Below, in pieces: positions 23,295 to 43,571 of a DNA stretch of 64,000 bases. Within the stretch, counting starts at the first letter, position 1, and each line of letters begins with the position of its first letter. Below the pieces are notes generated by a model. The model was not told the DNA's origin. It saw nothing but the letters and a program-made list of their open reading frames with translations, and did not search any database. Where the stretch lies: positions 1 to 64,000 of IMG/VR virus record IMGVR_UViG_3300025727_000008. One strand, given 5' to 3'. The stretch comes from a virus. The position numbers and the translations under genes are program-made.

Positions 23295-23603
23295 TTATTT
23301 ACCATCTCTCGGTTTATATATTTTAGTTCCTATATATTTCGGTTCAGGTAATGTAGGACTTAAAGGATGTTCAGTATTCATTAAACAACTCCCATTATCA
23401 CTAATAGTTACTTCAGGTAAAGAACATTTTAAGTTTTTATTATGACCACATTTGGTAGCCTCACATTTTCTTACTTTACAATCTGATGCAGTAGGTATAA
23501 ACGCAGTTCCTTTTGGTATATATTTTGTTCCGCCACCTGCAATATCACTAATTCTAGAAGCCATTTCTGCATCTTCATTCTTAACTATATCTTTCCAACT
23601 CAT
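23295..23603 (-). CDS. WxxILK-tagged Cys-rich protein
   Basis: MSWKDIVK; C-x4-C-x4-C-x7-C...C cluster. Confidence 0.65.
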   Translation of the reverse strand: MSWKDIVKNEDAEMASRISDIAGGGTKYIPKGTAFIPTASDCKVRKCEATKCGHNKNLKCSLPEVTISDNGSCLMNTEHPLSPTLPEPKYIGTKIYKPRDGK

Positions 23604-23615
23604 TTAATCATCTCC

Positions 23616-24092
23616 TTAATATTCTGCACCATATTGGTTATCTACTTTAACAGGCAGCATTAGTCCATCACCCATTGGTTCTCCCCACATTTCATCATCC
23701 TTTAGTTTGTAATCTATATATGCTGGATGAACTTCACCCATTCCACCTGAAGGAGTTTGTCGCATATTGGTATCTTTCTTACTATTCGTTTCTTCCTTAT
23801 ATTCATCAGATGTATCTACTAAGCCTTGAATTAAGTGAAGCAAAGCACTATTGTAGGATTCTTTAGCATGTTCTAACCTGTTAAATTTCTCATCAATATA
23901 TTTAAAATCTTCTTCTGATAACTTTCCGTCTAATTTTGGAAATCGCTCATATGCTAAATGCTCAAAATCACCCCAATCTAATTTGGAAAAAGGCTCTATT
24001 TCCAAACTTTCTAATTCGTCTGCTATATCTTCTAATTCTTCCGCAATGCTACCTTTATCATTTATCTTTACTATATCTTTCCACCAACTCAT
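23616..24092 (-). CDS. WxxILK-tagged acidic hypothetical protein
   Basis: MSWWKDIVK; GGTGA SD. Confidence 0.65.
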   Translation of the reverse strand: MSWWKDIVKINDKGSIAEELEDIADELESLEIEPFSKLDWGDFEHLAYERFPKLDGKLSEEDFKYIDEKFNRLEHAKESYNSALLHLIQGLVDTSDEYKEETNSKKDTNMRQTPSGGMGEVHPAYIDYKLKDDEMWGEPMGDGLMLPVKVDNQYGAEY

Positions 24093-24124
24093 TTAATCAC
24101 CTTAATTTTGTCGTATCTGCAAAT

Positions 24125-24397
24125 TCAGGTGATTCTGCTGTACCACTCAATTTTCTCCTTTATTAGTATATCTTTTATTGTCTCGGCTTCCTTATCCCAT
24201 TCAACATCTTCAGGATTTGTGTCGCCTTTTGCCAAATCCTCAAACAACCTTTGAATATATTTTAAACTTCCTAGTAAATTATTTACCCGCCCTCCAAGTT
24301 CACGAATTACGGCACTATCAGTTCCCTGTCGTAGGGTTTTATTATTAGGATTTCTCTTATCTGCGTCTTCTTTCTTTATTTCATCTTTCCAAGTCAT
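24125..24397 (-). CDS. WxxILK-tagged hypothetical protein
   Basis: MTWKDEIKK. Confidence 0.6.
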   Translation of the reverse strand: MTWKDEIKKEDADKRNPNNKTLRQGTDSAVIRELGGRVNNLLGSLKYIQRLFEDLAKGDTNPEDVEWDKEAETIKDILIKEKIEWYSRIT

Positions 24398-24720
24398 TCT
24401 AAATCCCCCTTACTCTTAGGATAAACCATATCTCTTAATTGACGATATAGTGTTTCATAATCTTTTCTAAGTTCTGCTGCTGATGATACTATTTCTAAAT
24501 TCCTTTCATCAAAGCCCTCAAACTTTTTTTGTAATTTTTTATCAGATTTAACTAAATCTAATTTACGCATTTCATCTAATAAATCAGATAAATGAGTCAT
24601 CTCTTGACCCATATATTCAGTAGGTTGGGTTTTCTGTAAAAGTTTCTTAAGTTTCTTTTTTTGTTTAGGTTCAACTTTTTCTAAAATTGAAGTAGATTTA
24701 AGTATATTTTTCCAACTCAT
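24394..24720 (-). CDS. WxxILK-tagged hypothetical protein
   Basis: MSWKNILKS. Confidence 0.65.
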   Translation of the reverse strand: MSWKNILKSTSILEKVEPKQKKKLKKLLQKTQPTEYMGQEMTHLSDLLDEMRKLDLVKSDKKLQKKFEGFDERNLEIVSSAAELRKDYETLYRQLRDMVYPKSKGDLE

Positions 24721-24757
24721 ATCTTACCCTTATCCATTCGCTTGTATGTATAGTTTA

Positions 24758-26746
24758 TCAATTTATGTTTTTAAGTTTAGAAATAATTAATTTTTCTAAC
24801 CCGTTATTTTTCATAGATGTTACATATTCATTATAAATATCATCTAATTGCTTTTCAGTAGGGTTTGTTAATTTACTTTGTTTTTCTTTTAGTGTTTTTA
24901 TAAATTCCATATGTTGTATCTGCGCTGGTCTATTTAATTTTAAATCTCTAAGTGTATCAAACCATGAATCAGCCTCATCTTTCAAACTATCTATATTATC
25001 TCCTGTTTGGCTAGCATTTACATCTTTAATTTTCCTCTTCATGCGATGTGTTTCTTCTTTAGTATTATCAGGTAAATCTCCAAACCCTTCACCTAAAGCA
25101 CCAGTACCATTAAATAAATTACTTAATTTTGTTAATTTCTTAACATATTTCTTTTTAAGTTCCTTAATTTTATTTATGTTAGATTTGTTTTCCCGTTCTG
25201 TTATAGATGCGTCAACACGTTCTGTTAATTGTTCTATAGTTAATTTTTCACCTTTTTTACTATTTAAAGTAGTATCAAGCATATCTAAAATTTCTGTTTC
25301 TATTTCAATTATTTCTATATTTAACTTCTCTAGAAGAATATATTTTCCTTTAATTTTCAATGCAGATAAAATACCATTAAGTGCTTTTGATATTTTTTTC
25401 CTTTTACTAACTAATTCTTTAAAATTATCAATAATGGCTAAAGGCTCATTAGGTTTTGAATAACTAATACTATCTTTGAAATCTTCAGTCATTTCATATC
25501 CATCATCATTAATATCTTTTACCCATTGTCGTTTTTGAGGTTTAACTTCTTTAGAGAGTTCGTATAGTTCTTTTATTGATACTCCGTCTAATGGAATGTC
25601 TGCATCTATTAGTGTTATTTCGTTTGATTTATCATTTAAATCTTTTATTGATTCATTTAAATCATCAATTCTAGATTGTTTCATAGGATTTTTAATTTCT
25701 ACCATACAACTAATTATGAGTCTTAATATTTTTAAATTAGATTCAATTTCTAACATAAATTCTTTAAAATCAGGTTTATCCTTTTCAATATCAATACCAT
25801 TATCACCTATTTCATCTTCTAATATTATTATTTTTTTTATTATTTCATATCCAATTAAATCATTATTTTTTTTAAAAAGAAGTGGTAAATGTTCATCTGC
25901 CTCTTTTATTAATTCAATATTATTTGATTCTATAGGTTCAATAAATTCTTCTATAAATTTAATAGTACTTTCATAATCCATATCAAAATATTCAGTTAAC
26001 AATTCTGTTGATTTATCACTTATATATTGATTATCAAATGTAATATCTAATTTATCAAATATAGCATATAATATTTTTTTGGATTTTATAAATCCGAAGT
26101 CTGTTATAATTTTAGAATATCTTTTAGGTATTTTTTCATTATTATTTAAATAACCATTTAATGATTCAGCAAGGCGTTTAATTAATTCATTTTCACTGTT
26201 AGTAGTAGTCTTTCCTGTATTTAATATTTTTTTAAACATTTCAAGGTCTTTATCTGATTTGTGTTTTTTAGGAATACCATAAATCTCTTTTAATCTAAAA
26301 ATTAATCCACTTTTACGCTTTTTCTCTTCTAATAATAAGTTATATGCTTCAGGATATTTATCTTTAGTTATATTTTTTTCAACATCATCTATTGCATTTT
26401 TAAGAATATTTAAAACTTTAAAATCATCTATTTTCCTTGTTCCTGTATCGTCTTTAGGAGTAGTAGTTTGTGTTTTTTCACCCTCTTCAAGTCGTTCCGT
26501 GTCTGTAAATGTTTTATGATGTATATATGTCCACTCACTATTATTAATATCATCCAAATTAAAAATATCTAATTGAGGAACACCATCTAATTGATTATAT
26601 TTATTTTTTACGTCTTTCATATCCCTAATTAAAGTCTTACTTTCCTTTAAATCCATCTCCCTATATTTACGCAAAATTTTTATTATGATTTCCGATAATG
26701 GTTTAAGTTTACGTTCTTTATTTTTTAAAATATCCATAAACGACAT
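24758..26746 (-). CDS. Large coiled-coil hypothetical protein with tag variant
   Basis: MSFMDILK; 662 aa, K/I/E-rich. Confidence 0.65.
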   Translation of the reverse strand: MSFMDILKNKERKLKPLSEIIIKILRKYREMDLKESKTLIRDMKDVKNKYNQLDGVPQLDIFNLDDINNSEWTYIHHKTFTDTERLEEGEKTQTTTPKDDTGTRKIDDFKVLNILKNAIDDVEKNITKDKYPEAYNLLLEEKKRKSGLIFRLKEIYGIPKKHKSDKDLEMFKKILNTGKTTTNSENELIKRLAESLNGYLNNNEKIPKRYSKIITDFGFIKSKKILYAIFDKLDITFDNQYISDKSTELLTEYFDMDYESTIKFIEEFIEPIESNNIELIKEADEHLPLLFKKNNDLIGYEIIKKIIILEDEIGDNGIDIEKDKPDFKEFMLEIESNLKILRLIISCMVEIKNPMKQSRIDDLNESIKDLNDKSNEITLIDADIPLDGVSIKELYELSKEVKPQKRQWVKDINDDGYEMTEDFKDSISYSKPNEPLAIIDNFKELVSKRKKISKALNGILSALKIKGKYILLEKLNIEIIEIETEILDMLDTTLNSKKGEKLTIEQLTERVDASITERENKSNINKIKELKKKYVKKLTKLSNLFNGTGALGEGFGDLPDNTKEETHRMKRKIKDVNASQTGDNIDSLKDEADSWFDTLRDLKLNRPAQIQHMEFIKTLKEKQSKLTNPTEKQLDDIYNEYVTSMKNNGLEKLIISKLKNIN

Positions 26747-26761
26747 TACTATTACCTCTGC

Positions 26762-26992: not shown

Positions 26993-26993
26993 T

Positions 26994-28664
26994 TTATCCT
27001 ACTCTCCTTTCTGTTCTTTTATCATTATTTTGATTACCAGCATCTTTAGGTAATCCTGTAAATCTTTTATCAGGGGCAACATTCATTCTAGGTTTGTTTC
27101 TCTTTTTAGGGGGTTCTGATTTTGCTTTTTCTGGAACACCCGCTTCTGCCAAACTAGGTTTATTACCCGCTTCCATCATTTGCCCTAATTGGCTTGCATC
27201 AACATCAGTTCCAGCATAAGGGTCAGGTTTGAAATCATCACCATCTGTTTGGGTTTTACCTTGTTCATCTCCTTCTACTGGTTCGGGTTTAGTATAAATA
27301 AATCCACCTTCATCATCCATTTCTACATCAAACCCTAAATTCTTTATTGAACCTGCAATATTAACTTCCATTTCTCTTAATCGAAGAACAGCAATTTCAT
27401 CTTCTTCTTCAGAAGGTGGTAATTTTAATTCCCAATCAGTAATGCCAAATTCACTAGTCATAAAAGGAAATACATAATTATTCCAAGTTGTTTGTGCCAT
27501 CTCTACTGCGCGATTAGTAACAAGAATTTGCATACCTTCGTTATTTAACCCACCACTAGCAGAAGCATCATTCATAAACACTTTACTAACTCCATAGAAC
27601 CCTGATATTCTATCTCTCAAATCATCTTTAACTGCAATATAATCCATTTCCTTAAGGCTGTCCATAAATCTAACCCATTCAACAGAACCCTTACCACCTT
27701 CAGATTCTATTCCCATTACAGGTATGAAGTGTGGGTCTTGTTCCATCTTCTCTTTAACGCCACGCCAAAAAGATTTCATTGAATCCATATTTCTAGTTTG
27801 AACAGCCAACAATCCCTTCGGCATTCTTGCCTTAGTATATGATGAATTTACATAATTATCCATTGCTATTAAGGTTGTAACATTATTCCATAATGTTATT
27901 ATTGGCGACATACCATATAATCTAGAAGGAGAATATTTACTAAAATGTACTACTTCACCTTTAATGAAATACTGTTCCTCTCCATTTACTCTATTAACAT
28001 AATGAACAGGATATAATTCAGATGCACAAGTTTCACATAACTCAGTTTGATGACTATGTACTCTATCTCTATGTCTTAAACAAATAAATCCACCTTTACC
28101 TCTTTCCCCTAATTCATTAGAATAAATATGCATAGTAACAGGGTCGCCTCTAAATATTTCTTTAATTTTATGCATTCTAATTTTTGAATTATTATCTAAA
28201 TAATATTCTTTAACATTAACTAAATATGCATCATCCATAATATTCAAATCATCTTCTAATTCTTTTAATACATCAATAAATAATTGTTCTGCACCATTAA
28301 CATAACCATCTAAAAAATCTTTAGCATAACTTAATTGTTTAGGTTCAGGTTTAACTAAATTGGTAGAACCGCAATCAACACATTCCTTTACAGGAGTAGA
28401 ATGTTCTTTATCACATTCTGCACACTTTTCTGTAAATTTTCCTTCCCATATATATCCCCGTCTAAATATTTCTTGTTTCAATTGAGTTATACAAGTTCGT
28501 ACTATTGTTGATTGTTGAACTATATGATAAATTATAGGACTAGTTAACATATAGGAATTATCTCTTTCTTGTATTCCTAAATTAAACACCGTTCTATCTG
28601 CGGGTTTAGGTGTAGTATTTCTAAACAAGTTAGTAAATGAAAACTTTCTTTTTTCTTCAACCAT
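26994..28664 (-). CDS. Portal protein with Zn-ribbon insertions
   Basis: YGMSPI, MPKGLL, RISGFYGVS portal motifs; downstream of TerL; CAEC..CVDC and CLRH..CETC inserts. Confidence 0.9.
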   Translation of the reverse strand: MVEEKRKFSFTNLFRNTTPKPADRTVFNLGIQERDNSYMLTSPIIYHIVQQSTIVRTCITQLKQEIFRRGYIWEGKFTEKCAECDKEHSTPVKECVDCGSTNLVKPEPKQLSYAKDFLDGYVNGAEQLFIDVLKELEDDLNIMDDAYLVNVKEYYLDNNSKIRMHKIKEIFRGDPVTMHIYSNELGERGKGGFICLRHRDRVHSHQTELCETCASELYPVHYVNRVNGEEQYFIKGEVVHFSKYSPSRLYGMSPIITLWNNVTTLIAMDNYVNSSYTKARMPKGLLAVQTRNMDSMKSFWRGVKEKMEQDPHFIPVMGIESEGGKGSVEWVRFMDSLKEMDYIAVKDDLRDRISGFYGVSKVFMNDASASGGLNNEGMQILVTNRAVEMAQTTWNNYVFPFMTSEFGITDWELKLPPSEEEDEIAVLRLREMEVNIAGSIKNLGFDVEMDDEGGFIYTKPEPVEGDEQGKTQTDGDDFKPDPYAGTDVDASQLGQMMEAGNKPSLAEAGVPEKAKSEPPKKRNKPRMNVAPDKRFTGLPKDAGNQNNDKRTERRVG

Positions 28665-31447: not shown

Positions 31448-31448
31448 A

Positions 31449-32039
31449 CTATGTCTCCATAAACATAAACATAGTTGCTTCTAATTCACTCATTGCCTTT
31501 ACAATATTCCAAGCCTTATTCATTGAATTAGGATTCCAAACTAATATTTTATCCCCGCCAATTCTTTTTCTTTCATTTTCAACTACTTCCATTGGTAATC
31601 CTTCAGGAATTTCTTCATCAGTAGGATTTTTAATCCAACCTCTTCTTTGAAATGCAGCAATCCAACCACCATCAGGTATAGTTTTATTATTTATACTACC
31701 TAAAATAGGTTTATCCTTTATCAATTGCATTCTTTTATCTATTAAATTAGAAGAAATTCTTTTTTTTCTATATGGAGTAGCAATAGTGCTTCCGGCTAAA
31801 ACCACATAACTTTTTTTTTCAGACCAACCCGAATAACCCACAATCATATCTCCGTCTAATGCAATTAGATATTTTACATTATCAACAGAATATGGACTTA
31901 AAGTGGGGCGTGTTTTTCTAGGGTTTTTATTTTGAACATATATTTTTTGCCAATTTTCTTCGCGAGATTCTCCCCATTGACTATTCCATAGTTCTAACAT
32001 CTCTGCTTCTGTATATATTTTACTAGGGTATGTTATCAT
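31449..32039 (-). CDS. GNAT-family acetyltransferase
   Basis: YLIALDGDMIVGY, IATPYRKKRISSNL (motif A variant), FQRRGW. Confidence 0.7.
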   Translation of the reverse strand: MITYPSKIYTEAEMLELWNSQWGESREENWQKIYVQNKNPRKTRPTLSPYSVDNVKYLIALDGDMIVGYSGWSEKKSYVVLAGSTIATPYRKKRISSNLIDKRMQLIKDKPILGSINNKTIPDGGWIAAFQRRGWIKNPTDEEIPEGLPMEVVENERKRIGGDKILVWNPNSMNKAWNIVKAMSELEATMFMFMET

Positions 32040-34810: not shown

Positions 34811-37072
34811 TTAACCTCTTATATTATGTTCTTCTGCTAACCAAGTAATTGGTTGAAACTTACGGTTTCCACTTAAAACAACATCTTCATTTATTACATA
34901 TTTTATAGATTCTTGTATTTCATTAAGAAGTGATTTTCTTACATGTTCGTATCTATCTAATAATAAATCACGCATGTCTTTAATAAGAGTTTGTTTATTT
35001 TCATCATCATCTATTTTTTCATTTTTATTTTTATCTAAAATATCCCAAGCACGACGTATTTCATTGTTACCATTTATATTCCCATCTAAACCCTTACTAA
35101 ACATTATAAATTTCCCAAAATTTCTACTTACATTATATTCGATTATTTCTGCTTCGGGAGATGTAAGGGTTTCTTCATCTTCATCCTCAGTATTAAAAAC
35201 CATTTTTTTGAATTTTTGAAGAGTTATTTTATCTGCATTATTTTGAGTTTCAAAATCTATATGTGTCTTAACCATATTGTTAAGTATTGTTTTAAATTTA
35301 TTTATATCCATCAGACTCTCTATTGCCATCCCAATATCAAAAAATTCTAATCCTGTTAATCTTTCTATTTTATTTTCAGTTTCATCATCTACCTTACCTT
35401 CAAATAATAACAAACCTTCTCTTTCATTAGAAGTTAAAGTAGCCCCTAAATATGAATCTTCTAGTTTATTTAATAATTTTTTAACACCCGTTTTAAATCT
35501 CAAATCACTTTCGTTATCTACATGTCTGTCTACCGGAAGTATTGTTGCCATTAAATTCCAAGTATTAGAATTATAATTATTATATTTATTTTGTAATTCA
35601 TCTAATAAGTCGTCGTCTATTTTAGTGTCTGTTTTAAGTTGTTTTGTTTCATGTTTATCAAAATAACTTTTTAACTTAATAAGCAATTTACTTGTTTTAA
35701 TTTTACTTTTAACTTCGGTTAACATCTCATTAAGTAATGGTTCTAGTTGTTCTTTATTTTCATGGTTAAAATAAATATCAAACATATACTTATAGGTATC
35801 ATAATCATCAACAAGAAGTCTAAATGACTTATTAGTACCTTGTAACATTTGCTTTTTATCTGACTTTGTTCCAGTCGTTATAGCCTTTAAAAAATATTCT
35901 ATTGATACCTTTGTTGATGGTTGTTCAATCTCATTTTTACGTCGCCCAGTAATCCTTGTTAATTCTTCCGTACTTTTTTTACCTGCTTTTTTACGCGAAC
36001 TTTTTTCACTTGAATCAAAATCAATATATTCAGCAAACTTCAAAGTTTGAGCCAACTTAGTTCTTTTAATAGCATTATAATTATTAGTTGTTCCATTAGA
36101 AAATATAAATAATTGTTCTTTAGTCATAAATTTAGGAAACCCTGTAAACGCAAATAAACTTCTTTCTTTATTTCCATACGCCCTTTCAGTTTTTGATTTG
36201 CTAGGTAGTTTTAATTTAGGTGGTGGGGCTAACAGGTTCTTACCCGAAAGAGGTTGAGGATTCGCATTAAATCCGAACGTAGACCAATCTATATGTCTAA
36301 ATTTAGATTCTAATGGTTTACCACCTATAGTATATGTTTCATTTATTTTATCATATAATACAGGTTTAGGTGTATCAATATCAAGGTCGAGTTTTTCAGC
36401 CTTAATCTTAATAGCATCTGCAACTTTACCTTCTATCTCCATAAGTATCATAGTTCCATCTTTAATTTCATACCCTAATATTTCAGGATTAGATTTTAAT
36501 TTCTCTATGATTTTTTTCTTATCAATTTTATTATTATTAATTAATCTACCTAATATCACCTGTCTTTGAGTAATTGCATCTTCCGCTAATACTCTTTTTT
36601 TGGTAACTAGTTTTTTCTTATCTCTAAAAATATGTTCACTATAAGAAACCTTACCAGTTAAATATTCAATAAGTTTTTCAATATCATTATTATATAGTTC
36701 CATAATAATACTATGATTATGATTACTATGCATATTTTTCAATTCTATAATCCATTTTATTTTTTCACGATATTTTGAGAATTCTTTCATAGGTAATTTA
36801 ACATGTGAAATTGATATTGGTGGTTCTTTAAAATAATCAACTTCAGGTGGGGCTAACAGTTTCTTATGTAGTATAGTTAAAATTTCTTGAAATTTAGGTT
36901 CAGTCATTTTATCCGAAGGAACAGGGGGTTTACCAGTATGAATATGTTTATCATAAAAATCACTAACTGCATTATTCATTTCTGATTTATTATATCCTAA
37001 TAATGGATATACTAATTTCATTTTAGGCGACATAACTTTCGCTCTATCTTTAAGAATTAATTGCCAACTCAT
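34811..37072 (-). CDS. Large WxxILK-tagged hypothetical protein (753 aa)
   Basis: MSWQLILK. Confidence 0.65.
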   Translation of the reverse strand: MSWQLILKDRAKVMSPKMKLVYPLLGYNKSEMNNAVSDFYDKHIHTGKPPVPSDKMTEPKFQEILTILHKKLLAPPEVDYFKEPPISISHVKLPMKEFSKYREKIKWIIELKNMHSNHNHSIIMELYNNDIEKLIEYLTGKVSYSEHIFRDKKKLVTKKRVLAEDAITQRQVILGRLINNNKIDKKKIIEKLKSNPEILGYEIKDGTMILMEIEGKVADAIKIKAEKLDLDIDTPKPVLYDKINETYTIGGKPLESKFRHIDWSTFGFNANPQPLSGKNLLAPPPKLKLPSKSKTERAYGNKERSLFAFTGFPKFMTKEQLFIFSNGTTNNYNAIKRTKLAQTLKFAEYIDFDSSEKSSRKKAGKKSTEELTRITGRRKNEIEQPSTKVSIEYFLKAITTGTKSDKKQMLQGTNKSFRLLVDDYDTYKYMFDIYFNHENKEQLEPLLNEMLTEVKSKIKTSKLLIKLKSYFDKHETKQLKTDTKIDDDLLDELQNKYNNYNSNTWNLMATILPVDRHVDNESDLRFKTGVKKLLNKLEDSYLGATLTSNEREGLLLFEGKVDDETENKIERLTGLEFFDIGMAIESLMDINKFKTILNNMVKTHIDFETQNNADKITLQKFKKMVFNTEDEDEETLTSPEAEIIEYNVSRNFGKFIMFSKGLDGNINGNNEIRRAWDILDKNKNEKIDDDENKQTLIKDMRDLLLDRYEHVRKSLLNEIQESIKYVINEDVVLSGNRKFQPITWLAEEHNIRG

Positions 37073-37203
37073 ATTAAATCACTACTTTCTAAAATAATTC
37101 TAATATCATTTATGGTTGGATTACCTTTCATTACTTTTATAATTTCATTTAGAGCGTCTGACCTTTTAGCCCCTATGTTTTTAATGGTATCTTCCCAACT
37201 CAT
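37069..37203 (-). CDS. 44-aa WxxILK-tagged protein (not in ORF track)
   Basis: MSWEDTIKNIGAKRSDALNEIIKVMKGNPTINDIRIILESSDLI; ATGA overlaps at both ends. Confidence 0.65.
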   Translation of the reverse strand: MSWEDTIKNIGAKRSDALNEIIKVMKGNPTINDIRIILESSDLI

Positions 37204-37559
37204 TTTGCCTTACCCCCCGTACATTTTTCAAAATTATCTATCATTTTTTCTAGTTCTGCTAATCCCCAAGTGGGAAAGTTACTATCTTTTTGTGGTTTTT
37301 TAACTTCATCTATCATATGCAAAATTGTTCCCACTACCACATCACAAGGCTTTTCTAATATGCTCAGAAAATAATCTTTCATACCGTTAACATCTTCTTC
37401 AAACAACCCCTCTCTAGAATGACCTAATTTTTCAGCGTAATATTCAACTAATTTTTCAATAAACATACTATACTCAGTTTTTAATTGAGAACAACACGAT
37501 TCATACGCATCGAACTTTACATCTAAAATTTGTATTTTTAAAACATCTTGCCAACTCAT
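37200..37559 (-). CDS. WxxILK-tagged hypothetical protein
   Basis: MSWQDVLK. Confidence 0.65.
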   Translation of the reverse strand: MSWQDVLKIQILDVKFDAYESCCSQLKTEYSMFIEKLVEYYAEKLGHSREGLFEEDVNGMKDYFLSILEKPCDVVVGTILHMIDEVKKPQKDSNFPTWGLAELEKMIDNFEKCTGGKAK

Positions 37560-37565: not shown

Positions 37566-37901
37566 TTATCCCTCCAAATTACCATCTAAACTATACAGTA
37601 TTACATCTGATACTGCTACTTCTAATGATATAATCAGTTCTCTTAATTCTTTATCTAATACCCCTGCGTTTCTTACCGCCATCCTATAATCATCATCATG
37701 CTCCATGTCGTAAGGTTCTCCTTTCTCGTCTATTAAATACGGGTTATTTTTATGATGAGCATATTTTTTAGCGTTTAATAAGAACTGTTGAAGTTGTCTA
37801 ATTTCATCAAGAGTCATAGAACCAAAATTAGGGTGAGTTTGCATAAGTTTAACCATAGCATTTACTTCGGGTTTATTCTTTAAGATATTATTCCAACTCA
37901 T
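37566..37901 (-). CDS. WxxILK-tagged hypothetical protein
   Basis: MSWNNILK. Confidence 0.65.
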   Translation of the reverse strand: MSWNNILKNKPEVNAMVKLMQTHPNFGSMTLDEIRQLQQFLLNAKKYAHHKNNPYLIDEKGEPYDMEHDDDYRMAVRNAGVLDKELRELIISLEVAVSDVILYSLDGNLEG

Positions 37902-38308
37902 TGCATCAACTCTATCATTAATCCTTTTTCATCAATTTCTGTAACTTTCAGTTCTGAATTATTCTTCAGTTTATCTGCAACCTTATACAAATGAGGATTC
38001 GTTATTCGACCATAGGCTAACCAAAATGGCCTATATTCTCCTAATACCCCATTAGTGTCCATTAATGCCCCAACTACCATTTTTTCTGCAAACCCTTTTC
38101 TTTGGTAATCAGGATGAATAGAAATATGTAATTCTCTTATCTTTCCATCATTAAATGGCTTCATGTTTTCAAGGCTACTATAATCTTTAGGCCGGTAATG
38201 CAAAATTAGTTTATCTCCGTATTCCTCAAACAAAACATTGTGAAACCAACCATCATCATCTACTGAAATAGGACTAATTTCCGCTTTTAATAACTGTTGC
38301 CAACTCAT
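37898..38308 (-). CDS. WxxILK-tagged GNAT-like acetyltransferase
   Basis: MSWQQLLKA; HISIHPDYQRKGFAEKM is a GNAT acetyl-CoA binding motif A. Confidence 0.7.
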   Translation of the reverse strand: MSWQQLLKAEISPISVDDDGWFHNVLFEEYGDKLILHYRPKDYSSLENMKPFNDGKIRELHISIHPDYQRKGFAEKMVVGALMDTNGVLGEYRPFWLAYGRITNPHLYKVADKLKNNSELKVTEIDEKGLMIELMQ

Positions 38309-38964
38309 TGTAACTTCTCCATTTTACTTCTAACATCTAACCAAACTTCAGGATGGTTTTGTGCTAACACCTCTTTGATAATTTGCATCTGATGAACAAT
38401 AATTGTATCTTGCCTCTTATGTACTAACTTACCTTTGAACTCCATCAAGTATCTCAAACTCTCACGGACTTCTTTAGCCAACTTAGTTAGTGAATCAATA
38501 TGTTTAGCATCCAAATCATCGGAATCAAAAAGCATATCTAACTTAATATCTAATCTAGAAATATTTGCACTCAAGGTATCAACCTCATTTATTTCTTGCA
38601 TAGCAATCATATTTGCAGCAGACTGTTGAACTAAAGGTTGCACATGATTTTTAATATGTCTAACTACTTGGTCAGCAGTACAATTTAACATTAAACCAAC
38701 TTCTTCAGGAGTTATATTTGCACCATGTAATTGCAATTCAATCTCACTTCTATGTTCACTAATACAAATGTTACATCTAGGATTAGAAGAATTAACATAT
38801 CCTTCCATGTGATTTCTTTGATGTCTTGAAGCAGTTCCACTAGACCAATCCATTTGGACATCCAAATCATCAGCAGTAATTATCATATTATCTAATTCAT
38901 CTTCTAGAGTTTGCCTATTATCTAAATTACAAAATACACAACGTTTTCTGGTTATCATTTCCAT
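38305..38964 (-). CDS. Tandem Zn-finger/HTH protein, candidate terminase small subunit
   Basis: Two CxxC...HxxxH repeats (CVFC..HQRNH; CNIC..HIKNH) followed by helical oligomerisation-like region. Confidence 0.55.
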   Translation of the reverse strand: MEMITRKRCVFCNLDNRQTLEDELDNMIITADDLDVQMDWSSGTASRHQRNHMEGYVNSSNPRCNICISEHRSEIELQLHGANITPEEVGLMLNCTADQVVRHIKNHVQPLVQQSAANMIAMQEINEVDTLSANISRLDIKLDMLFDSDDLDAKHIDSLTKLAKEVRESLRYLMEFKGKLVHKRQDTIIVHQMQIIKEVLAQNHPEVWLDVRSKMEKLQ

Positions 38965-39323
38965 AATTCCTCTTCAGGGTAAAGTTCCATAGCCTCTTCT
39001 ATATCTTCTCTAAAGTTTTCAGCGACTTCTAACCAATCAACATCTGATATTGAATCTCCTACTTCATCTCTATCATTAACGGGAGATAATAATTCATCCA
39101 TGAAACCTTTACTTTGAGTCATCATTTCAGGTAACTCTTTTGCTATTGTATTTAATATATCATCTATAACATCTTGTTTAGTCCAGTTGAATTCAAGATA
39201 ACCTTTTACCTTTAATTTAATTAACTGTACTATAGGAAAATAAAGTTCTTCAGTATTCATAACCCATAAATCTGCACTTCTAGTAGCAGTTGCGGTATCT
39301 TTCAATATCTTTTTCCAACTCAT
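38955..39323 (-). CDS. WxxILK-tagged hypothetical protein
   Basis: True start likely ATG 39323 (MSWKKILKD) after GGAG SD. Confidence 0.65.
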   Translation of the reverse strand: MSWKKILKDTATATRSADLWVMNTEELYFPIVQLIKLKVKGYLEFNWTKQDVIDDILNTIAKELPEMMTQSKGFMDELLSPVNDRDEVGDSISDVDWLEVAENFREDIEEAMELYPEEELWK

Positions 39324-39395
39324 CTTAATACTCTCCACAATAAGGACACATAATCCCTGAATAATTATCACTGTTAATATTTATTTTACAACACT

Positions 39396-40562
39396 TTAAC
39401 ATATTAATTCCCTCTTTAAAATATCTCGCCAATCATTAACTTCTACATCATTAGTTTTTTTAGTTTGAGATTTAACTTCCGGTTTATCAAATCTAATAGT
39501 AACAGTATTATGTTTCCTACCTGTTTTTGGTTCAGTAAACTTTCTATTATTTTCCTTCAATAATATTTTTGCCATCTGATTTGCTACCCCTCTAGTTAAT
39601 TTAAAATATCCTCGTTTAAGTGTGAAAAATTCAGGTATTCCTAAATTATTCCTAACTCTATTTTGAAAATCTTTTCTTGTTGGCAATAAATGACTTTTAC
39701 TCTCTATTTCTCGCATAACCTCGCCATATCGAAATGCACCATTTCTACCTGCCATATCAGGTTCAATATATTTACGAACTATTCTCTTAATACTATTAAT
39801 TTCTAATGCTTTTTCAGCCCAACCTGTTTGTCCTTTTTTTCCTAATTTAATAGGATTATCTTTACTTATACCTACACCGTCTTTTAAGGCTTCAATACCT
39901 TCTTCTATGATTTCATGTAAACTTTTAGAACTTGTAATTTTAACCTCACCTTCTCTACCATACATAACTTGCCAAAAAGGTGGTTCGGCTACACCTTTAG
40001 AATAGTCATACCAAGATTCAGGACATGCCGGTGCAGGGTTTAAATCCCTTTTAGGGAATTTTTTCATTTTAATTTTTCTTTTATTTTCATAATTTTTAGT
40101 ACGATAGTGTCCATATACTTCTTCTTCATCTACAACTTTACCACTATCTTCATCTACTTCTTTATCGGTAAAAGAAATATTTCTAGGATTTAAAGGGTTT
40201 TGAGGGCTACTATAAGAATCCATTAAAAGTCTAACTTTATTTAATTTTATTATATCATCTATACCAATATCTTCTCCATCAACAATATTAGTAATAATTC
40301 CTATAATTTCAGAACCACCTTTACCACTAGTATAAGGTGAAGGGGATTTATCACCTTGTAATCTACCAATTAATCCTTGTTGTTTAAACATCTGATAAAG
40401 ACTAATATCATTTTCCATAAATAATGTTTCACCACTTATTTCTGATAACTGTTGTTGCCAATTATCAAACGATTTTCCAAACATTTGGACATTAGCACCA
40501 GTTAATTTAACATCATTTTTTAAGATTATATTTGACGTTCTTTCTAGGTTTCTTTTTGCCAC
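39396..40562 (-). CDS. Hypothetical protein with C-terminal WRDILK motif
   Basis: 388 aa; ends VNDWRDILKRELIC. Confidence 0.65.
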   Translation of the reverse strand: MAKRNLERTSNIILKNDVKLTGANVQMFGKSFDNWQQQLSEISGETLFMENDISLYQMFKQQGLIGRLQGDKSPSPYTSGKGGSEIIGIITNIVDGEDIGIDDIIKLNKVRLLMDSYSSPQNPLNPRNISFTDKEVDEDSGKVVDEEEVYGHYRTKNYENKRKIKMKKFPKRDLNPAPACPESWYDYSKGVAEPPFWQVMYGREGEVKITSSKSLHEIIEEGIEALKDGVGISKDNPIKLGKKGQTGWAEKALEINSIKRIVRKYIEPDMAGRNGAFRYGEVMREIESKSHLLPTRKDFQNRVRNNLGIPEFFTLKRGYFKLTRGVANQMAKILLKENNRKFTEPKTGRKHNTVTIRFDKPEVKSQTKKTNDVEVNDWRDILKRELIC

Positions 40563-40680
40563 GTTTTTTACCCCCTATTGATTTATTATTAAATAAAGAT
40601 GAAGTTCCACTATTACTAGTAGTAACTGCCCCTGCCATTCTTAGTATTGTAAACCATTTAGTGTTAAGAGAAGATGCCAC
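40513..40680 (-). CDS. 55-aa basic protein (not in ORF track)
   Basis: GTG start; MASSLNTKWFTILRMAGAVTTSNSG...GGKKRGKKKPRK; contains tag variant WFTILR. Confidence 0.45.
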   Translation of the reverse strand: MASSLNTKWFTILRMAGAVTTSNSGTSSLFNNKSIGGKKRGKKKPRKNVKYNLKK

Positions 40681-40823
40681 TTATCTAAGCGCAATACTAC
40701 TTGGACTATAACTATTCTTCTTCTCCTTCTATTGCTCTAATAATAGCATACCAGTATTCTTCTTCTTGAGTTAGAATTTTATTATTCTTATCTTTTTTCA
40801 TTTTTATTAAACCAATTTCTATT

Positions 40824-41123
40824 TCACTCCAATCCTTTAAACGAATCTCTTTCTGAAATACCAGCATCATCCATTATATCTTGCAATCTAGCAACAAGAT
40901 ACTCATTTGTGAACACCTGCCAATTACCTTCTTCGGTTTGCATTGCTTCTAATCCACTTTCTAACCAAGTCAACCATCGGTGAGCATCATGTTCTAACTG
41001 TCCTTTCAACTTAGGCAAATACTCTAATCTAAACCTTCTAAGAAAATCCTTTACTTGCGCTACAGTCAATTCATTAGGATTGTAATGGGGTTTTTCCTTT
41101 CTAATTATATTAAACCAATTCAT
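40824..41123 (-). CDS. WxxILK-tagged hypothetical protein
   Basis: MNWFNIIRK. Confidence 0.65.
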   Translation of the reverse strand: MNWFNIIRKEKPHYNPNELTVAQVKDFLRRFRLEYLPKLKGQLEHDAHRWLTWLESGLEAMQTEEGNWQVFTNEYLVARLQDIMDDAGISERDSFKGLE

Positions 41124-41338
41124 TTTAATTGCCTTCTTAACATTGGTTTTTTAAATGTATTATATAATTCCCATAATGGTTCACTTGAATTAAGCCTAGT
41201 TATTTCATCATTCAGTTTTTTCATTCTATAAAGTGCTTGTGCGTCAGATTTAAAATCTTTAACTTTATCTCCTACTTCTGTGTACCATTCAGTATTACCC
41301 GATATGTGTCCTTTCTTAATTTGTTTTTTCCAATCCAT
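41120..41338 (-). CDS. Tagged hypothetical protein
   Basis: Likely start ATG 41338 (MDWKKQIKK) after GGGGG SD. Confidence 0.6.
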   Translation of the reverse strand: MDWKKQIKKGHISGNTEWYTEVGDKVKDFKSDAQALYRMKKLNDEITRLNSSEPLWELYNTFKKPMLRRQLK

Positions 41339-41342
41339 AATA

Positions 41343-41825
41343 TCATTTCCCCCTTGCCATAACTTCAGCACACCTTCTACAATAGTGTAACTCTTTAGGT
41401 GAACCCTTTGAATGTATTTTACCATCTCTTATATATTTTTTAGTGCCTAGAGATACCGGTTTTTTGCATCGAACACAGCGAAATTTACTAAGATTAGAAT
41501 TTGGTTTTTTCTTTTCTTTTCCTTCAGGTCGCCCACTTGCATTAAATCCTTTAATACCATATTGCACTTCACCTTCTTGTGCCATTGATGTTCCTAACCT
41601 AGTTTTTCTCTCTTCGATTAATTTTTTACCTTCAACATTCCTGTTTAGTGGTAAATCTGTTCCTCTTCCCATTGTTCTACTAGTGCCTTTGGGTGCATGA
41701 CCTTCCTCTTCAATAGATTTTACTCTTTCGTTAGGTTTTAATCGTTCACCACCCATTATATCAACAGGTTTCCTGTTCCTATTCTTTCTAGGCCGATTTC
41801 TTTTAATTAAATCAAACCAAGTCAT
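41343..41825 (-). CDS. WxxILK-tagged basic protein with C-terminal Zn finger
   Basis: MTWFDLIK; CVRC...CRRC. Confidence 0.65.
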   Translation of the reverse strand: MTWFDLIKRNRPRKNRNRKPVDIMGGERLKPNERVKSIEEEGHAPKGTSRTMGRGTDLPLNRNVEGKKLIEERKTRLGTSMAQEGEVQYGIKGFNASGRPEGKEKKKPNSNLSKFRCVRCKKPVSLGTKKYIRDGKIHSKGSPKELHYCRRCAEVMARGK

Positions 41826-42088
41826 TTTTTCCCACCTTCTAATATATTCCTACTAACTTGGCAACACAATCTAATCTTTTGTGTACTTTCTAAAAACCAA
41901 AAAGAATCCTTATCCCAATCAAATTTATTCTCAACATGATTACAAAGTTCTCTTCTTCCCATGTTTTGCAAATCACCATCTATACTAACATCAAGAATAT
42001 CACCTTTCGGATGCACTAACTTCTTATCTAACCAAACATAGGTACTACCCATGAATGCAATCAATTTTCTAATTATCCATTGCTTCAT
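41822..42088 (-). CDS. Hypothetical protein
   Basis: GGTGA SD; overlapping neighbours. Confidence 0.6.
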   Translation of the reverse strand: MKQWIIRKLIAFMGSTYVWLDKKLVHPKGDILDVSIDGDLQNMGRRELCNHVENKFDWDKDSFWFLESTQKIRLCCQVSRNILEGGKK

Positions 42089-42786
42089 ACTAAATCACCT
42101 ACTACAATATCATGAATATTATTTGAACTATCTAAATATTGCAATATTAGTTTTACTTTTTCTTCATGCTTGATAACATCGTCATAAAAAATATCTATAG
42201 ATGAAGGAAACAAATATACATTCTCATGCTTTAATTGCCATACTTTATTACTGTAACTACCAGTTTCATCCCACGTTGTTATATTTTCATCGTAAATAGT
42301 CAATGGTCTAATTACCAGTAAGTTATCCATGTGATTTAGTAGTTCATTTAAAGGCTGGTGGAAAATGGAAGTTCTGTTGTTTTCGGAGAGCCATCCATCA
42401 TCTTCTTCTTGCATTGCGTTATACTCTTCCCACATTCTTTCATTCTCTAATTCATTTTCTGTTTTTTCCGGTTCAATCATATGGAGTTTATTATATCTTT
42501 TCGTTATATTATTTTTAGCAATATTAACTATCTTTTTGAATTTTTCATTCAACACATTATGCCCATTAAGAGTTAGACCACGATTACGCTTAATCCAATT
42601 AATAGTTTCTTCCTTAGTTTTCTGAGTTTCAATTGGTTGGCTCTTAGTCCAAGCAGACGGTTGTTCATGATATTTTTTCGGAGTAACATTTCCACCTGAC
42701 TTATTAGGACTTGACTTATTTCTATTCTTCTTTTGAGCATTACTAGGCCACTTCTTTTTTCTTTTTAGAATATCAAACCAAGTCAT
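42085..42786 (-). CDS. WxxILK-tagged hypothetical protein
   Basis: MTWFDILK. Confidence 0.65.
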   Translation of the reverse strand: MTWFDILKRKKKWPSNAQKKNRNKSSPNKSGGNVTPKKYHEQPSAWTKSQPIETQKTKEETINWIKRNRGLTLNGHNVLNEKFKKIVNIAKNNITKRYNKLHMIEPEKTENELENERMWEEYNAMQEEDDGWLSENNRTSIFHQPLNELLNHMDNLLVIRPLTIYDENITTWDETGSYSNKVWQLKHENVYLFPSSIDIFYDDVIKHEEKVKLILQYLDSSNNIHDIVVGDLV

Positions 42787-42790
42787 TTTT

Positions 42791-43219
42791 TCACCCTTTA
42801 TTTTCTATGCCTAATTTAACATTTGGTGTTCCAAACAAACCATCAATAATTCGCCTGTATGGTTTACTAATATAACTATTGTATGCAACAAAATCTATTA
42901 ATTCTTGAACGGAACTAAATTCTGTCTTAGTTAAATATTGTTCTATTTCTTCAGAATCCCACATAAAATGCCCCCCATTAGAAAACGAATTACCATCCAG
43001 TCTTTTGGGAGAACCACGCTCATCATATTTTTTATATTGTAATCCTAATCTAGATGCTGTGTTTTTAATTTCTTCTTCAATTTCATTAGACCAAGAAATA
43101 GGAATATAACCAATTGCCTTTTGTTGATTTGAATTAAACATATTTTCTAATTCTCTTAATTTATTTAGATTGTGTTCTTTATCGAACCTTTCATTCTTTA
43201 AAACACTAAACCAATCCAT
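42791..43219 (-). CDS. WxxILK-tagged hypothetical protein
   Basis: MDWFSVLK; GGTGA SD. Confidence 0.65.
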   Translation of the reverse strand: MDWFSVLKNERFDKEHNLNKLRELENMFNSNQQKAIGYIPISWSNEIEEEIKNTASRLGLQYKKYDERGSPKRLDGNSFSNGGHFMWDSEEIEQYLTKTEFSSVQELIDFVAYNSYISKPYRRIIDGLFGTPNVKLGIENKG

Positions 43220-43361
43220 TTTATCACCAAAGTTGTGGGTACTGAAATGTTTTACCTAATGAAAACTGAAAAATGTGGTGGAATTTATTTAGCACTAGCG
43301 CGATTTTTTTTGTTGGGTAGTAACCATAAACAGTATAAGGATAATAGTAATGTGCCATTTA

Positions 43362-43571
43362 TTATTCCTCGATAAACTTTAGTGTTGTTTGTTTTGAATT
43401 AGGTTTCTGTTCATCAGCACTAATAACTTTAGTTGGTTTAGGTTTACCTTTAAACCATTTACTCGCAGGTTTAGATGATACAGTTGCACCGTCAATTAAT
43501 TCTTCAGGTAGTTTTGTTTGTGTTGTATTCTTTTTATTTTTACTATCTTTGATAATATTAAACCAGTTCAC
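43362..43571 (-). CDS. WxxILK-tagged basic protein
   Basis: GTG start, MNWFNIIK; GGTGA SD. Confidence 0.6.
   Translation of the reverse strand: MNWFNIIKDSKNKKNTTQTKLPEELIDGATVSSKPASKWFKGKPKPTKVISADEQKPNSKQTTLKFIEE

What the first reader, a model, noticed from the sequence alone, without database searches (positions are those of the whole stretch)
23295..43571. Shared N-terminal 'WxxILK' tag on ~16 unrelated proteins: candidate capsid-targeting/cargo-loading signal
Seen: ORFs of 44-753 aa with no other similarity start MSWKDIVK, MSWWKDIVK, MTWKDEIK, MSWKNILK, MSFMDILK, MSWQLILK, MSWEDTIK, MSWQDVLK, MSWNNILK, MSWQQLLK, MSWKKILK, MNWFNIIR, MDWKKQIK, MTWFDLIK, MTWFDILK, MDWFSVLK, MNWFNIIK. The motif also occurs near C-termini (WRDILK in 39396-40562, WNIVKA in the 31449 GNAT). 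All are in the head-morphogenesis arm and none in the replication arm. Codons vary, so conservation is at peptide level. Known: T4 internal proteins carry a short N-terminal capsid targeting sequence removed by the prohead protease. Inference: this is an analogous modular tag ending in a Lys cleavage site. It would load a variable cargo (acetyltransferases, Zn fingers, large proteins) into the head for delivery into an archaeal host.
Basis: partly seen in the sequence, partly recalled or inferred. Interest (0 to 1): 0.88.

Follow-up and report, generated by a model that had tools for sequence, protein, structure and literature searches.

The report
Shared docking tag on magrovirus proteins
Seventeen unrelated, fast-changing proteins of this ocean archaeal virus (a magrovirus) start with the same eight-residue peptide, which copies the conserved tail of the virus's own head-scaffold proteins and so probably loads them into the virus head, though neither loading nor cutting has been measured.

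Summary
Seventeen minus-strand ORFs between 23295 and 43571 begin M-[STDN]-W-x-x-[IV]-[LIV]-K (one has F for W, one a GTG start). A DNA form of the motif hits 8 times against 0.09 expected. In 80 related contigs about 500 tagged ORFs fall into more than 200 BLAST families, all on the coding strand. Core genes never carry the N-terminal tag.

Tagged proteins are soluble ORFans with almost no nucleotide homologues among relatives. The same motif closes the C-terminal tails of conserved morphogenesis proteins: the protease-scaffold fusion, a 79-aa scaffold-like protein, a 388-aa protein and the GNAT-position protein. It is therefore a terminal protein-docking peptide, not a translation signal.

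Capsid loading by mimicry of the scaffold tail is the best reading (about 0.5). Cleavage after Lys is possible but weakly supported. Codon 2 is frozen as AGT and 87% of tagged genes start ATGA, so part of the conservation lies at the nucleotide level.

No magrovirus paper I read mentions the tag.

The parts
23295..23603 (-). Tagged ORF, 102 aa, MSWKDIVK; body has a DUF1540-like Cys-rich domain
   Evidence: PSSM 26.4
23616..24092 (-). Tagged ORF, 158 aa, MSWWKDIVK (one-residue-longer spacing)
24125..24397 (-). Tagged ORF, 90 aa, MTWKDEIK
24394..24720 (-). T108: the one tagged protein conserved in all relatives (72 of 72 loci), MSWKNILK. Helical-bundle body, with an indel-rich linker after the tag
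24758..26746 (-). Tagged ORF, 662 aa, F variant MSFMDILK. It occupies a conserved position after the portal and c74. It has a second motif, DSWFDTLR, at residue 593
34811..37072 (-). Tagged ORF, 753 aa, MSWQLILK. It occupies a conserved position just upstream of the 920-aa core protein
37069..37203 (-). Tagged ORF, 44 aa, MSWEDTIK; ATGA overlap with the upstream gene
37200..37559 (-). Tagged ORF, 119 aa, MSWQDVLK (highest PSSM score, 27.7)
37566..37901 (-). Tagged ORF, 111 aa, MSWNNILK
37898..38308 (-). Tagged ORF, 136 aa, MSWQQLLK; sub-threshold GNAT hit
38955..39323 (-). Tagged ORF, 122 aa, MSWKKILK
40824..41123 (-). Tagged ORF, 99 aa, MNWFNIIR (Arg in place of Lys)
41120..41338 (-). Tagged ORF, 72 aa, MDWKKQIK
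41343..41825 (-). Tagged ORF, 160 aa, MTWFDLIK; basic, with a C-terminal zinc ribbon
42085..42786 (-). Tagged ORF, 233 aa, MTWFDILK
42791..43219 (-). Tagged ORF, 142 aa, MDWFSVLK
43362..43571 (-). Tagged ORF, 69 aa, GTG start, (M)NWFNIIK
18964..20142 (-). Prohead protease (Pfam S78) fused to a scaffold. Its C-terminal tail SMTWDDVHNL (about 18979-19005) matches the first six tag positions. Conserved [IL]-x-K-[SA] lies about 30 aa upstream, and FDILK|ME lies at the protease/scaffold junction
22992..23231 (-). c76: 79-aa scaffold-like core protein (long helix, disordered linker, terminal helix). Its tail SMEWEDIHEL (about 23010-23036) is the best internal match to tag positions 1-6 in the genome
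39396..40562 (-). c388: conserved 388-aa protein ending NDWRDILKRELIC (motif about 39414-39437), a C-terminal copy of the tag; 25 of 31 orthologues match the strict motif
31449..32039 (-). It has a C-terminal KAWNIVK (about 31497-31511); orthologues end W-x-x-[IL]-[LM]-[RK]R
38305..38964 (-). Zn219: conserved zinc-finger and coiled-coil protein (possible small terminase) whose tail EVWLDVRSKM (about 38320-38343) is a looser relative of the scaffold-type tail
17558..18961 (-). Major capsid protein (SU10_MCP/HK97-type), the most likely receptor. Conserved NALLK|[AS] lies at residues 25-30 of its N-arm

Best explanation
M-S-W-x-D-I-L-K is a portable terminal docking peptide. It is a short amphipathic helix (W, I and L on one face) tethered by a flexible, indel-tolerant polar linker to whatever protein follows.

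In this magrovirus lineage it is attached to the hypervariable accessory proteins encoded around the terminase and portal genes. It copies the conserved C-terminal tail of the protease-scaffold fusion and of a second, scaffold-like 79-aa protein. In tailed phages and herpesviruses, scaffold C-terminal tails are the element that grips the inside of the procapsid (established knowledge for P22 gp8 and HSV pre-VP22a).

The tagged proteins are therefore inferred to bind the same site, either the capsid protein's inner face or the scaffold core. They would be co-assembled into the procapsid and delivered into the host with the DNA, as T4 does with its internal proteins. The prohead protease may trim the tag after Lys, but this is optional to the model.

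Shown: the motif, its modularity, its restriction to termini, its resemblance to the tail, the solubility of the cargo, its hypervariability and its restriction to this virus lineage.

Inferred: the receptor, packaging, injection and cleavage.
For: (1) Non-random and peptide-level. The window has 8 hits against 0.09 expected. In 80 relatives there are 488 coding-strand hits and 0 on the opposite strand. Codons for residues 4-8 vary.

(2) Modular. More than 200 unrelated families carry the tag. W is invariant and K is present in 93%. Residues 9-18 are polar and Pro-rich. T108 orthologues have indels, or an inserted zinc ribbon, between tag and body. In the AF2 model the T108 body has pLDDT above 85 while the first 10 residues average 60 and are unpacked.

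(3) Works at either terminus. Motif density per 1000 positions is 66 at N-termini, 2.3 in the last 16 residues and 0.16 internally. This excludes a translation-start explanation.

(4) Tail mimicry. Scanning 21,819 internal positions of the genome's proteins with tag positions 1-6 ranks the c76 tail first and the scaffold tail fourth. Both lie 12-13 residues from the C-terminus. The tails are conserved in 16 (scaffold) and 58 (c76) distinct relatives, and in a lineage whose TerL is only 35% identical. AF2 models c76 as helix, linker, terminal helix, like a small scaffold protein.

(5) Cargo-like properties. 0 of 211 family representatives have a transmembrane segment. 150 representatives give only about 5 Pfam hits. 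Tagged genes have essentially no nucleotide homologues in more than 300 related loci, whereas core genes have 50-125.

(6) Location. All tags lie in about 20 kb around terminase and portal, on the structural-gene strand, in the window and in 5 complete relatives.

(7) Not a host signal. 596 Gb of prokaryote genomes give 36 scattered single hits, roughly the ~26 I estimate from chance, and none in Poseidoniales. More than 120 stretches in IMG/VR match, and most of the 120 fetched carry homologues of this virus's core genes; the rest are stretches of tagged genes only.
Against: There is no direct evidence that any tagged protein is in a virion or binds capsid or scaffold.

The tail and the tag differ at the last two positions (H-x against L-K).

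Co-variation between tag and tail across lineages does not hold cleanly. Lineages B and C both use A-W-x-h-h-K tags, yet their scaffold tails differ ([AG]-W-R-A-L in B, S-W-x-D-V-H in C).

A probable small-terminase-like protein (Zn219) carries a related tail, which hints at a non-capsid partner.

Seventeen cargo species up to 753 aa is many for a capsid holding a 95-100 kb genome.

The tagged genes at 34.8-43.6 kb are the promoter-proximal genes of the leftward arm, a position where early genes would also sit.

Codon 2 is frozen as AGT and most tagged genes start ATGA, so part of the conservation is at nucleotide level.
Confidence: 0.5

Rival explanations
1. The peptide docks its bearers onto a different viral hub that is not the capsid interior, for example the portal, the terminase motor or a replication/assembly compartment. 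Bearers would be recruited to the assembly site without being packaged.
For: Several non-cargo-like core proteins carry related C-terminal tails. These include Zn219, which has the zinc-ribbon, HTH-like and coiled-coil layout of a small terminase. All tags flank terminase and portal. Scaffold proteins of other phages are also known to bind portals (established knowledge).
Against: A dodecameric portal offers few sites for about 17 competing species. The closest sequence match is to scaffold-type tails, whose classical partner is the coat protein.
Confidence: 0.15
2. The tag binds a host hub protein (chaperonin, proteasome, PCNA-like clamp or a defence protein). It would mark a family of host-takeover or anti-defence proteins that act in the cytoplasm after being made there.
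For: The proteins are hypervariable, small, soluble ORFans, typical of arms-race genes. The genes are promoter-proximal in the leftward arm.
Against: This does not explain why the scaffold and c76 tails carry the same motif. No cellular genome shows the tag beyond chance, although that test used only one codon pattern.
Confidence: 0.12
3. The shared start is mainly a nucleotide-level feature. ATGAGTTGG would be kept for translational coupling (ATGA stop-start overlap) and as a short homology patch for cassette exchange. The peptide would be a by-product of common descent of the gene starts.
For: Ser codon 2 is AGT in 128 of 128 representatives against 26% background. The other residue-2 variants (AAT, ACT, GAT, GGT) are one-step neighbours of AGT. 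178 of 204 families start ATGA, and in 79 of them an upstream frame of at least 40 codons ends on that TGA.
Against: Codons 4-8 vary freely while the residues are kept. The motif recurs at C-termini and in scaffold tails, where no start codon is involved. Lineages B and C keep the W-h-h-K core with different flanks and at internal positions. 24 nt is very short for homologous recombination.
Confidence: 0.1
4. The tag is a recognition or acceptor site for a virus-encoded modifying or degrading enzyme. Lys8 could be the acceptor for the virus's ubiquitin-like system, or the tag could be a degron or cleavage site for the prohead protease alone. Either would time the life of accessory proteins.
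For: Lys is nearly invariant (93%). The same genome encodes Ubl, E1, E2-like and JAB proteins (note e1-6100717; ThiF confirmed). Hydrophobic-x-Lys sites are conserved at the protease/scaffold junction, about 30 aa before the scaffold tail, and in the capsid protein's N-arm.
Against: Four lineage-B genomes (88-95% complete) that use the related AW-x-h-h-K tag have no ThiF/E1. The scaffold and c76 tails keep W, D and I, but the scaffold tail lacks the Lys. The residue after Lys8 is K/E/N/R rather than the S/A of the conserved candidate cleavage sites.
Confidence: 0.08

Closest known systems
Capsid targeting sequence (CTS) of phage T4 internal proteins IPI-III and Alt (Rao & Black 2010, PMC3012670)
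   Same: A short N-terminal peptide is the only thing shared by a highly diverse, fast-evolving set of small soluble proteins. In T4 it suffices to load them, and foreign proteins, into the prohead core.
   Different: There is no sequence similarity. The protease is of a different family (Pfam S78 here, not T4 gp21). There are 15-17 bearers per genome and more than 200 families in the lineage, against a handful in T4. The motif also works at C-termini and mirrors the scaffold tail. The host is an archaeon. Packaging and cleavage are untested here.
C-terminal coat-binding tail of scaffolding proteins (P22 gp8; herpesvirus pre-VP22a/UL26), and engineered P22 VLP cargo loading by fusion to that tail (PMC9962691)
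   Same: The scaffold ends in a tethered amphipathic helix. Here the tag copies that helix, which is what nanotechnologists do on purpose when they fuse cargo to the P22 scaffold tail. As in herpesviruses, the protease is fused to the scaffold. Candidate release and maturation sites sit at the junction and about 30 aa before the tail.
   Different: Natural cargo proteins carrying a scaffold-tail mimic have not, to my knowledge, been described. Binding of this tail to this capsid protein is inferred and not shown. The tag is N-terminal and only 8 residues long.
Encapsulin cargo-loading peptides
   Same: A short terminal peptide on diverse cargo docks onto the inner face of an HK97-fold shell. 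It can sit at either terminus.
   Different: Encapsulins are DNA-free compartments whose peptides have different consensus sequences and usually serve one or a few cargo types per shell. Here the shell is a true virus capsid with portal, terminase and protease.
Shared leader tags found earlier by this scan in other magroviruses (W-x-x-I-L-K and AFDxAWxLLK forms; 49 findings in at least 38 genomes)
   Same: The same W-x-x-I-L-K tag occurs in other lineage-A genomes. The AF-x-x-[AG]-W-x-h-h-K form occurs in the lineage whose TerL is 39% identical to ours, which I re-derived independently.
   Different: Those are unpublished AI notes, not literature. None of them measured packaging either.

Membership tests
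T4-type capsid targeting sequence system | Short N-terminal peptide shared by otherwise unrelated proteins | tested here: met
   17 ORFs in the window and more than 200 families in relatives carry it; the bodies are unrelated.
T4-type capsid targeting sequence system | Bearers are hypervariable between related viruses | tested here: met
   The median number of loci with nucleotide homology is 0-2 for tagged genes (T108 excepted), against 50-125 for core genes.
T4-type capsid targeting sequence system | Sequence relatedness to the T4 CTS, and processing by a T4 gp21-type protease at L/I-x-E | tested here: not met
   The consensus MSWxDILK ends in Lys, not Glu. The protease is Peptidase_S78 (HK97 type), E = 4.9e-10.
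T4-type capsid targeting sequence system | Bearers are present inside virions, and the tag is necessary and sufficient for loading | not testable with these tools
Scaffold-protein C-terminal coat-binding tail | Conserved amphipathic helix at the extreme C-terminus of the scaffold, behind a flexible linker | tested here: met
   The tail [MI]-[ST]-W-x-D-[IV]-H-x-L is conserved in 16 distinct relatives and in lineage C. AF2 models c76 as helix 6-38, linker, helix 68-78.
Scaffold-protein C-terminal coat-binding tail | The tag is sequence-similar to that tail | tested here: met
   Tag PSSM positions 1-6 rank the c76 tail 1st and the scaffold tail 4th of 21,819 internal positions. The c76 logo M57/58, W58/58, [DE], I57/58, K33/58 matches the tag at 6 of 8 positions.
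Scaffold-protein C-terminal coat-binding tail | The tail or tag binds the major capsid protein | not testable with these tools
Scaffold-protein C-terminal coat-binding tail | Tag and tail co-vary between virus lineages | tested here: inconclusive
   In lineage A both have S before W. In lineage B both have A/G before W. In lineage C the tail has S but the tags have A, and the spacing differs.
Encapsulin cargo-loading peptide | Terminal peptide on cargo plus an HK97-fold shell lacking portal and DNA packaging | tested here: not met
   The shell protein matches SU10_MCP, but the locus encodes TerL, portal, protease and tail genes.
Secretion or membrane signal peptide | Hydrophobic core or transmembrane segment | tested here: not met
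   0 of 211 representatives have a 19-residue window with Kyte-Doolittle hydropathy of 1.7 or more; the 99th percentile is 1.5. The tag has only three hydrophobic residues.
Substrate tag of the virus-encoded ubiquitin-like system | Tag and E1/Ubl cassette co-occur | tested here: not met
   Four lineage-B genomes (88-95% complete) carrying the related tag have no ThiF match, while the window genome has one at 2.7e-20.

The most novel reading that the evidence does not exclude
Magroviruses, among the most abundant archaeal viruses of the surface ocean, load a fast-changing arsenal of hundreds of unrelated protein families into their heads. Each protein carries an 8-residue copy of the scaffold's own capsid-binding tail. 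The injected effector repertoire of an uncultured archaeal virus could then be read directly from sequence, and the tag could be reused as a cargo-loading handle for HK97-fold capsids.
Probability: 0.4. Interest if true: 0.8.

Novelty: new variant of a known kind. Interest (0 to 1): 0.7.

Why it matters
Most magrovirus genes have no known function. This tag sorts 15-25 of them per genome, and more than 200 families in the lineage, into one functional class. It also proposes a concrete, testable partner: the site that holds the scaffold tail.

If the tagged proteins are packaged and injected, this would be the first cargo-delivery system described for an archaeal tailed virus. It would be far larger in scale than T4's internal proteins. 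It would also be a natural example of scaffold-tail mimicry, the trick used to engineer P22 nanocages.

The tagged set would then be a direct catalogue of candidate anti-defence and host-takeover proteins against Poseidoniales, organisms that cannot yet be cultured.

If the partner turns out to be something else, the tag still defines a hub-and-spoke interaction network in these viruses.

Tried and rejected
- Complex prediction (MCP alignment A3 plus tag alignment A2) was unavailable, so there is no result for or against binding.
Distant lineages were reached through the search for related loci instead.
- The search for homologous proteins with TerL returned only close relatives and did not help sample outgroups.
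- A search of the phage collection with TerL found no magrovirus records.
- The search for related loci with the 753-aa tagged protein found no relatives, in keeping with hypervariability.

**Ideas tested and set aside**
- FxILKS and FDILK flanking the protease domain as evidence for tag-like cleavage sites. Both lie inside the Pfam S78 domain model (residues 26-175) and are conserved in lineages with different tags. They are probably strands of the protease fold. I do not count them as support, although FDILK|ME could still be a release site.
- Strict co-variation of tag and scaffold tail across three lineages does not hold.
- A link to the viral ubiquitin-like system is rejected as a general explanation.
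- A host-type signal peptide or membrane anchor is rejected.
- The haloarchaeal relative HVTV-1, the nearest cultured virus with a protease-scaffold fusion, has no such tag and a different scaffold tail. Its virion data therefore cannot be transferred.
- Pfam and PHROGs scans of core neighbours (920-aa, 388-aa, Zn219, c74, c76, c86) gave nothing usable.

Full report
**What the window is.** It is an AT-rich (about 30% GC) tailed archaeal virus. One arm is transcribed leftward (1 to about 43.6 kb) and encodes the structural and morphogenesis genes. These are the capsid protein (17558-18961, Pfam SU10_MCP), a prohead protease fused to a scaffold (18964-20142, Peptidase_S78), a DNA ligase, portal, terminase, and sheath/tape-measure-like genes. 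The other arm is transcribed rightward and encodes replication genes: helicase, class II RNR, TFB, E1/JAB, ligase. The held genome is 78,572 nt and 81% complete.

**Check of the observation.**
- A DNA rendering of M-x-W-x-x-[IV]-[ILV]-K matches 8 times against 0.09 expected, and no shuffle reaches 8.
- Nothing matches on the other strand, in other frames, or in the replication arm of the full genome.
- With the first 12 residues removed, the 17 proteins show no similarity to each other (best E = 0.078).

**The tag in relatives.** Eighty IMG/VR contigs with TerL 78-94% identical carry 488 strict-motif ORFs on the coding strand and none on the opposite strand.
- The roughly 500 tagged genes (513 once GTG/TTG starts are counted) fall into more than 200 BLAST families.
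- The conserved genes (TerL, portal, a 445-aa LAGLIDADG-containing protein, a 920-aa protein, ligase, protease-scaffold) never carry the N-terminal tag.
- The logo from one sequence per family is M100, S64/N12/T9/D5, W100, [E/F/K/Q], D46/E14/N13, I57/V19, L59/I23/V14, K93/R6, followed by a polar, Pro-containing stretch.
- Tagged genes, apart from one conserved 108-aa protein (T108), have essentially no nucleotide homologues in more than 300 related loci. Core genes have homologues in 50-125.
- Five complete 95-99 kb relatives have their tags clustered in about 20 kb on one strand. One displaced cassette sits at a genome end.
- An exact-pattern scan of IMG/VR hit its limit at 120 stretches. Most of these carry homologues of this virus's core genes, and the rest are stretches of tagged genes only.
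- The same pattern in 596 Gb of prokaryote genomes gave 36 scattered single hits, about what I estimate from chance, and none in Poseidoniales.

**What the tagged proteins are.** They are mostly unknowns.
- 150 family representatives gave only about five Pfam hits: a soluble PAP2-like phosphatase and several zinc ribbons.
- In the window, one tagged protein has a DUF1540 domain and one has a sub-threshold GNAT hit.
- None of 211 representatives has a transmembrane segment.
- Net charge ranges from strongly acidic to strongly basic.

**Is it protein-level or DNA-level?** It is both.
- Codons for residues 4-8 vary widely, though not exactly as in the background.
- Ser2 is AGT in 128 of 128 representatives, against 26% of Ser codons elsewhere. 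The alternative residues (AAT, ACT, GAT, GGT) are single-step neighbours of AGT.
- 178 of 204 tagged families start ATGA. In 79 of them an upstream open frame ends on that TGA, which is translational coupling.
- The first nine nucleotides therefore look inherited or constrained as DNA or RNA, while the hydrophobic-Lys half is kept as peptide.

**The key finding: the motif is not confined to N-termini.** Density of W-x-x-h-h-[KR] per 1000 positions is 66 at N-termini, 0.16 internally and 2.3 in the last 16 residues.
- C-terminal copies sit on conserved proteins. These are the 388-aa protein (DW[RK]xI[MLV]K plus 2-4 residues; 25 of 31 orthologues), the protein at the GNAT position upstream of TerL, and two further families.
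- The conserved C-terminal tails of two morphogenesis proteins match the front of the tag. The protease-scaffold ends [MI]-[ST]-W-x-D-[IV]-H-x-L-[AV] in 16 distinct relatives.
- A 79-aa core protein, c76, ends K-M-[DS]-W-x-[DE]-I-[HRN]-K-[MIL]-V-E, with W in 58 of 58, M in 57 of 58 and I in 57 of 58.
- Scanning all 21,819 internal positions of the genome's proteins with tag positions 1-6 ranks the c76 tail first and the scaffold tail fourth. Both lie 12-13 residues from the C-terminus. With positions 3-8, the 388-aa protein's tail ranks first.
- AF2 models c76 as a long helix, a disordered linker and a terminal helix covering the motif. That is the layout of a small scaffolding protein.
- T108 folds as a confident helical bundle whose first ten residues are low-confidence and unpacked. 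Its orthologues have indels, or an inserted zinc ribbon, between tag and body.

**Other lineages.**
- Lineage B (TerL 39% identical, synteny preserved) uses AF-x-x-[AG]-W-x-[VIL]-[VL]-K. This tag is often preceded by a few residues and in one conserved protein sits about 150 residues in. Its scaffold tail reads EF-x-x-[LM]-G-x-x-[LI]-[DE]-[AG]-W-[RK]-A-[LA]-E-x-L-A.
- Lineage C (TerL 35% identical) has few tags, of the A-W-x-L-M-K type. Its scaffold and c76-like tails are almost identical to ours (MSW[ND]DVHRLA, MSWEDIHAMA).
- The tails are therefore ancient and share the spacing W, h(+3), L(+6), A(+7). The tags share W plus a hydrophobic pair plus Lys.
- Tag and tail do not co-vary cleanly between lineages.
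- The cultured halovirus HVTV-1, which also has a protease-scaffold fusion, has neither the tag nor this tail.

**Mechanism.** Occurrence at both termini and in scaffold tails rules out a translation-initiation signal as the main cause. Lack of hydrophobic cores and absence from cellular genomes rule out a host secretion or membrane signal. A link to the virus's ubiquitin-like system fails as a general explanation, because four lineage-B genomes (88-95% complete) with the related tag have no ThiF/E1.

What remains is a short docking helix recognised by a conserved viral partner. The closest matches are scaffold-type tails, and such tails bind the coat protein's inner surface in P22 and herpesviruses (established knowledge). 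The most economical model is therefore that tagged proteins occupy scaffold-tail sites in the procapsid and are packaged. This is functionally equivalent to the T4 capsid-targeting sequence (PMC3012670) and to engineered P22 cargo loading (PMC9962691). I put this at about 0.5. That the motif is a protein-level docking or sorting peptide of some kind I put at about 0.85.

**Cleavage.** Hydrophobic-x-Lys sites are conserved in three places.
- At the protease/scaffold junction: FDILK|ME in lineage A, YTILK|MD in B, FRILK|ED in C.
- About 30 residues before the scaffold tail: [ILF]-x-K|[SA] in all three lineages.
- In the capsid protein's N-arm: NALLK|[AS] in A, TDLLK|A in B.

This resembles the herpesvirus release and maturation sites and suits a Lys-specific S78 protease. 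However, the junction motif lies inside the Pfam protease domain model. The residue after the tag's Lys is K/E/N/R rather than S/A. The scaffold tail has no Lys. I put cleavage of the tag at about 0.3.

**Comparison with what is known, and novelty.** None of the three magrovirus papers I searched mentions an N-terminal motif, leader or scaffold. This scan has flagged the same tag, and the AFDxAWxLLK variant, before: 49 findings in at least 38 genomes. The lead that the tag resembles the scaffold tail came from those notes, and I re-derived and quantified it here.

The system works like T4's CTS. It is not a member of that family, because the sequence differs, the protease family differs, the tag is used at both termini and the scale is much larger. 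I class it as a new variant of a known kind.

**Limits.** Neither binding, packaging nor cleavage could be tested.

Noticed in passing
window 22992-23231 (-): c76, a 79-aa core protein, is modelled as a long helix, a disordered linker and a terminal helix. It shares its tail with the protease-scaffold fusion, so it looks like a second, small scaffolding protein. It is conserved in lineages with TerL only 35% identical.
   Followed up: partly
window 18964-20142 (-), about 30 residues before the C-terminus: [ILF]-x-K-[SA] (here ETIRK|SAEV) is conserved at the same place in three magrovirus lineages although its surroundings vary. It is a candidate maturation site that would free the scaffold from its tail, as in herpesviruses.
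   Followed up: partly
window 28664-30001 (-): A 445-aa protein with a C-terminal LAGLIDADG/HNH-like region lies between TerL and portal in all 81 loci examined. It behaves as a fixed core gene rather than a mobile homing endonuclease.
   Followed up: no
window 38305-38964 (-): The Zn219 protein has two CxxC pairs, an HTH-like stretch, a coiled-coil region and a conserved tail VWLDVRxKM. This layout fits a small terminase subunit, although it lies 7 kb upstream of TerL.
   Followed up: no
start codons of tagged genes, e.g. window 37203, 37559, 38308: Ser at residue 2 is always AGT (128 of 128 families) and never AGC or TCN. 87% of tagged genes begin ATGA. Stop-start coupling explains the A but not the fixed T at the third codon position.
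   Followed up: partly
L022:10322-11119 (+): A tagged 266-aa protein has a soluble, minimal PAP2-type phosphatase domain (KYGRPRP...PSGH...SRVKMGNHYPSD). It is followed by an internal tag-like KWQDILHKKRK and a very basic tail, which looks like a fusion of two tagged genes.
   Followed up: no
L053:16712-17254 and L059:16343-16885 (+): Some T108 orthologues carry a zinc-ribbon domain inserted between the tag and the conserved body. This shows the tag tolerates new domains behind it.
   Followed up: no
L408 (G009:C1) 2718-3740 (-): In one complete relative, a tagged 235-aa gene and its untagged 92-aa partner (homologue of window 41822-42088) lie about 45 kb from the other tags. They sit between the tail-fibre genes and the replication arm, as a displaced cassette.
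   Followed up: partly
window 24758-26746 (-) and positional homologues: The large protein after portal and c74 uses a Phe form of the tag (MSFMDILK, QDFMDILRKKK, MDFLDGLLIR) across several otherwise unrelated families.
   Followed up: partly
L213, L239, L243, L268 (lineage B): A conserved 555-600-aa protein upstream of the 920-aa homologue carries the lineage's tag (GRSxDAFEDAWSLVK) about 150 residues in. In our lineage the protein at that position (34811-37072) has the tag at residue 1.
   Followed up: no
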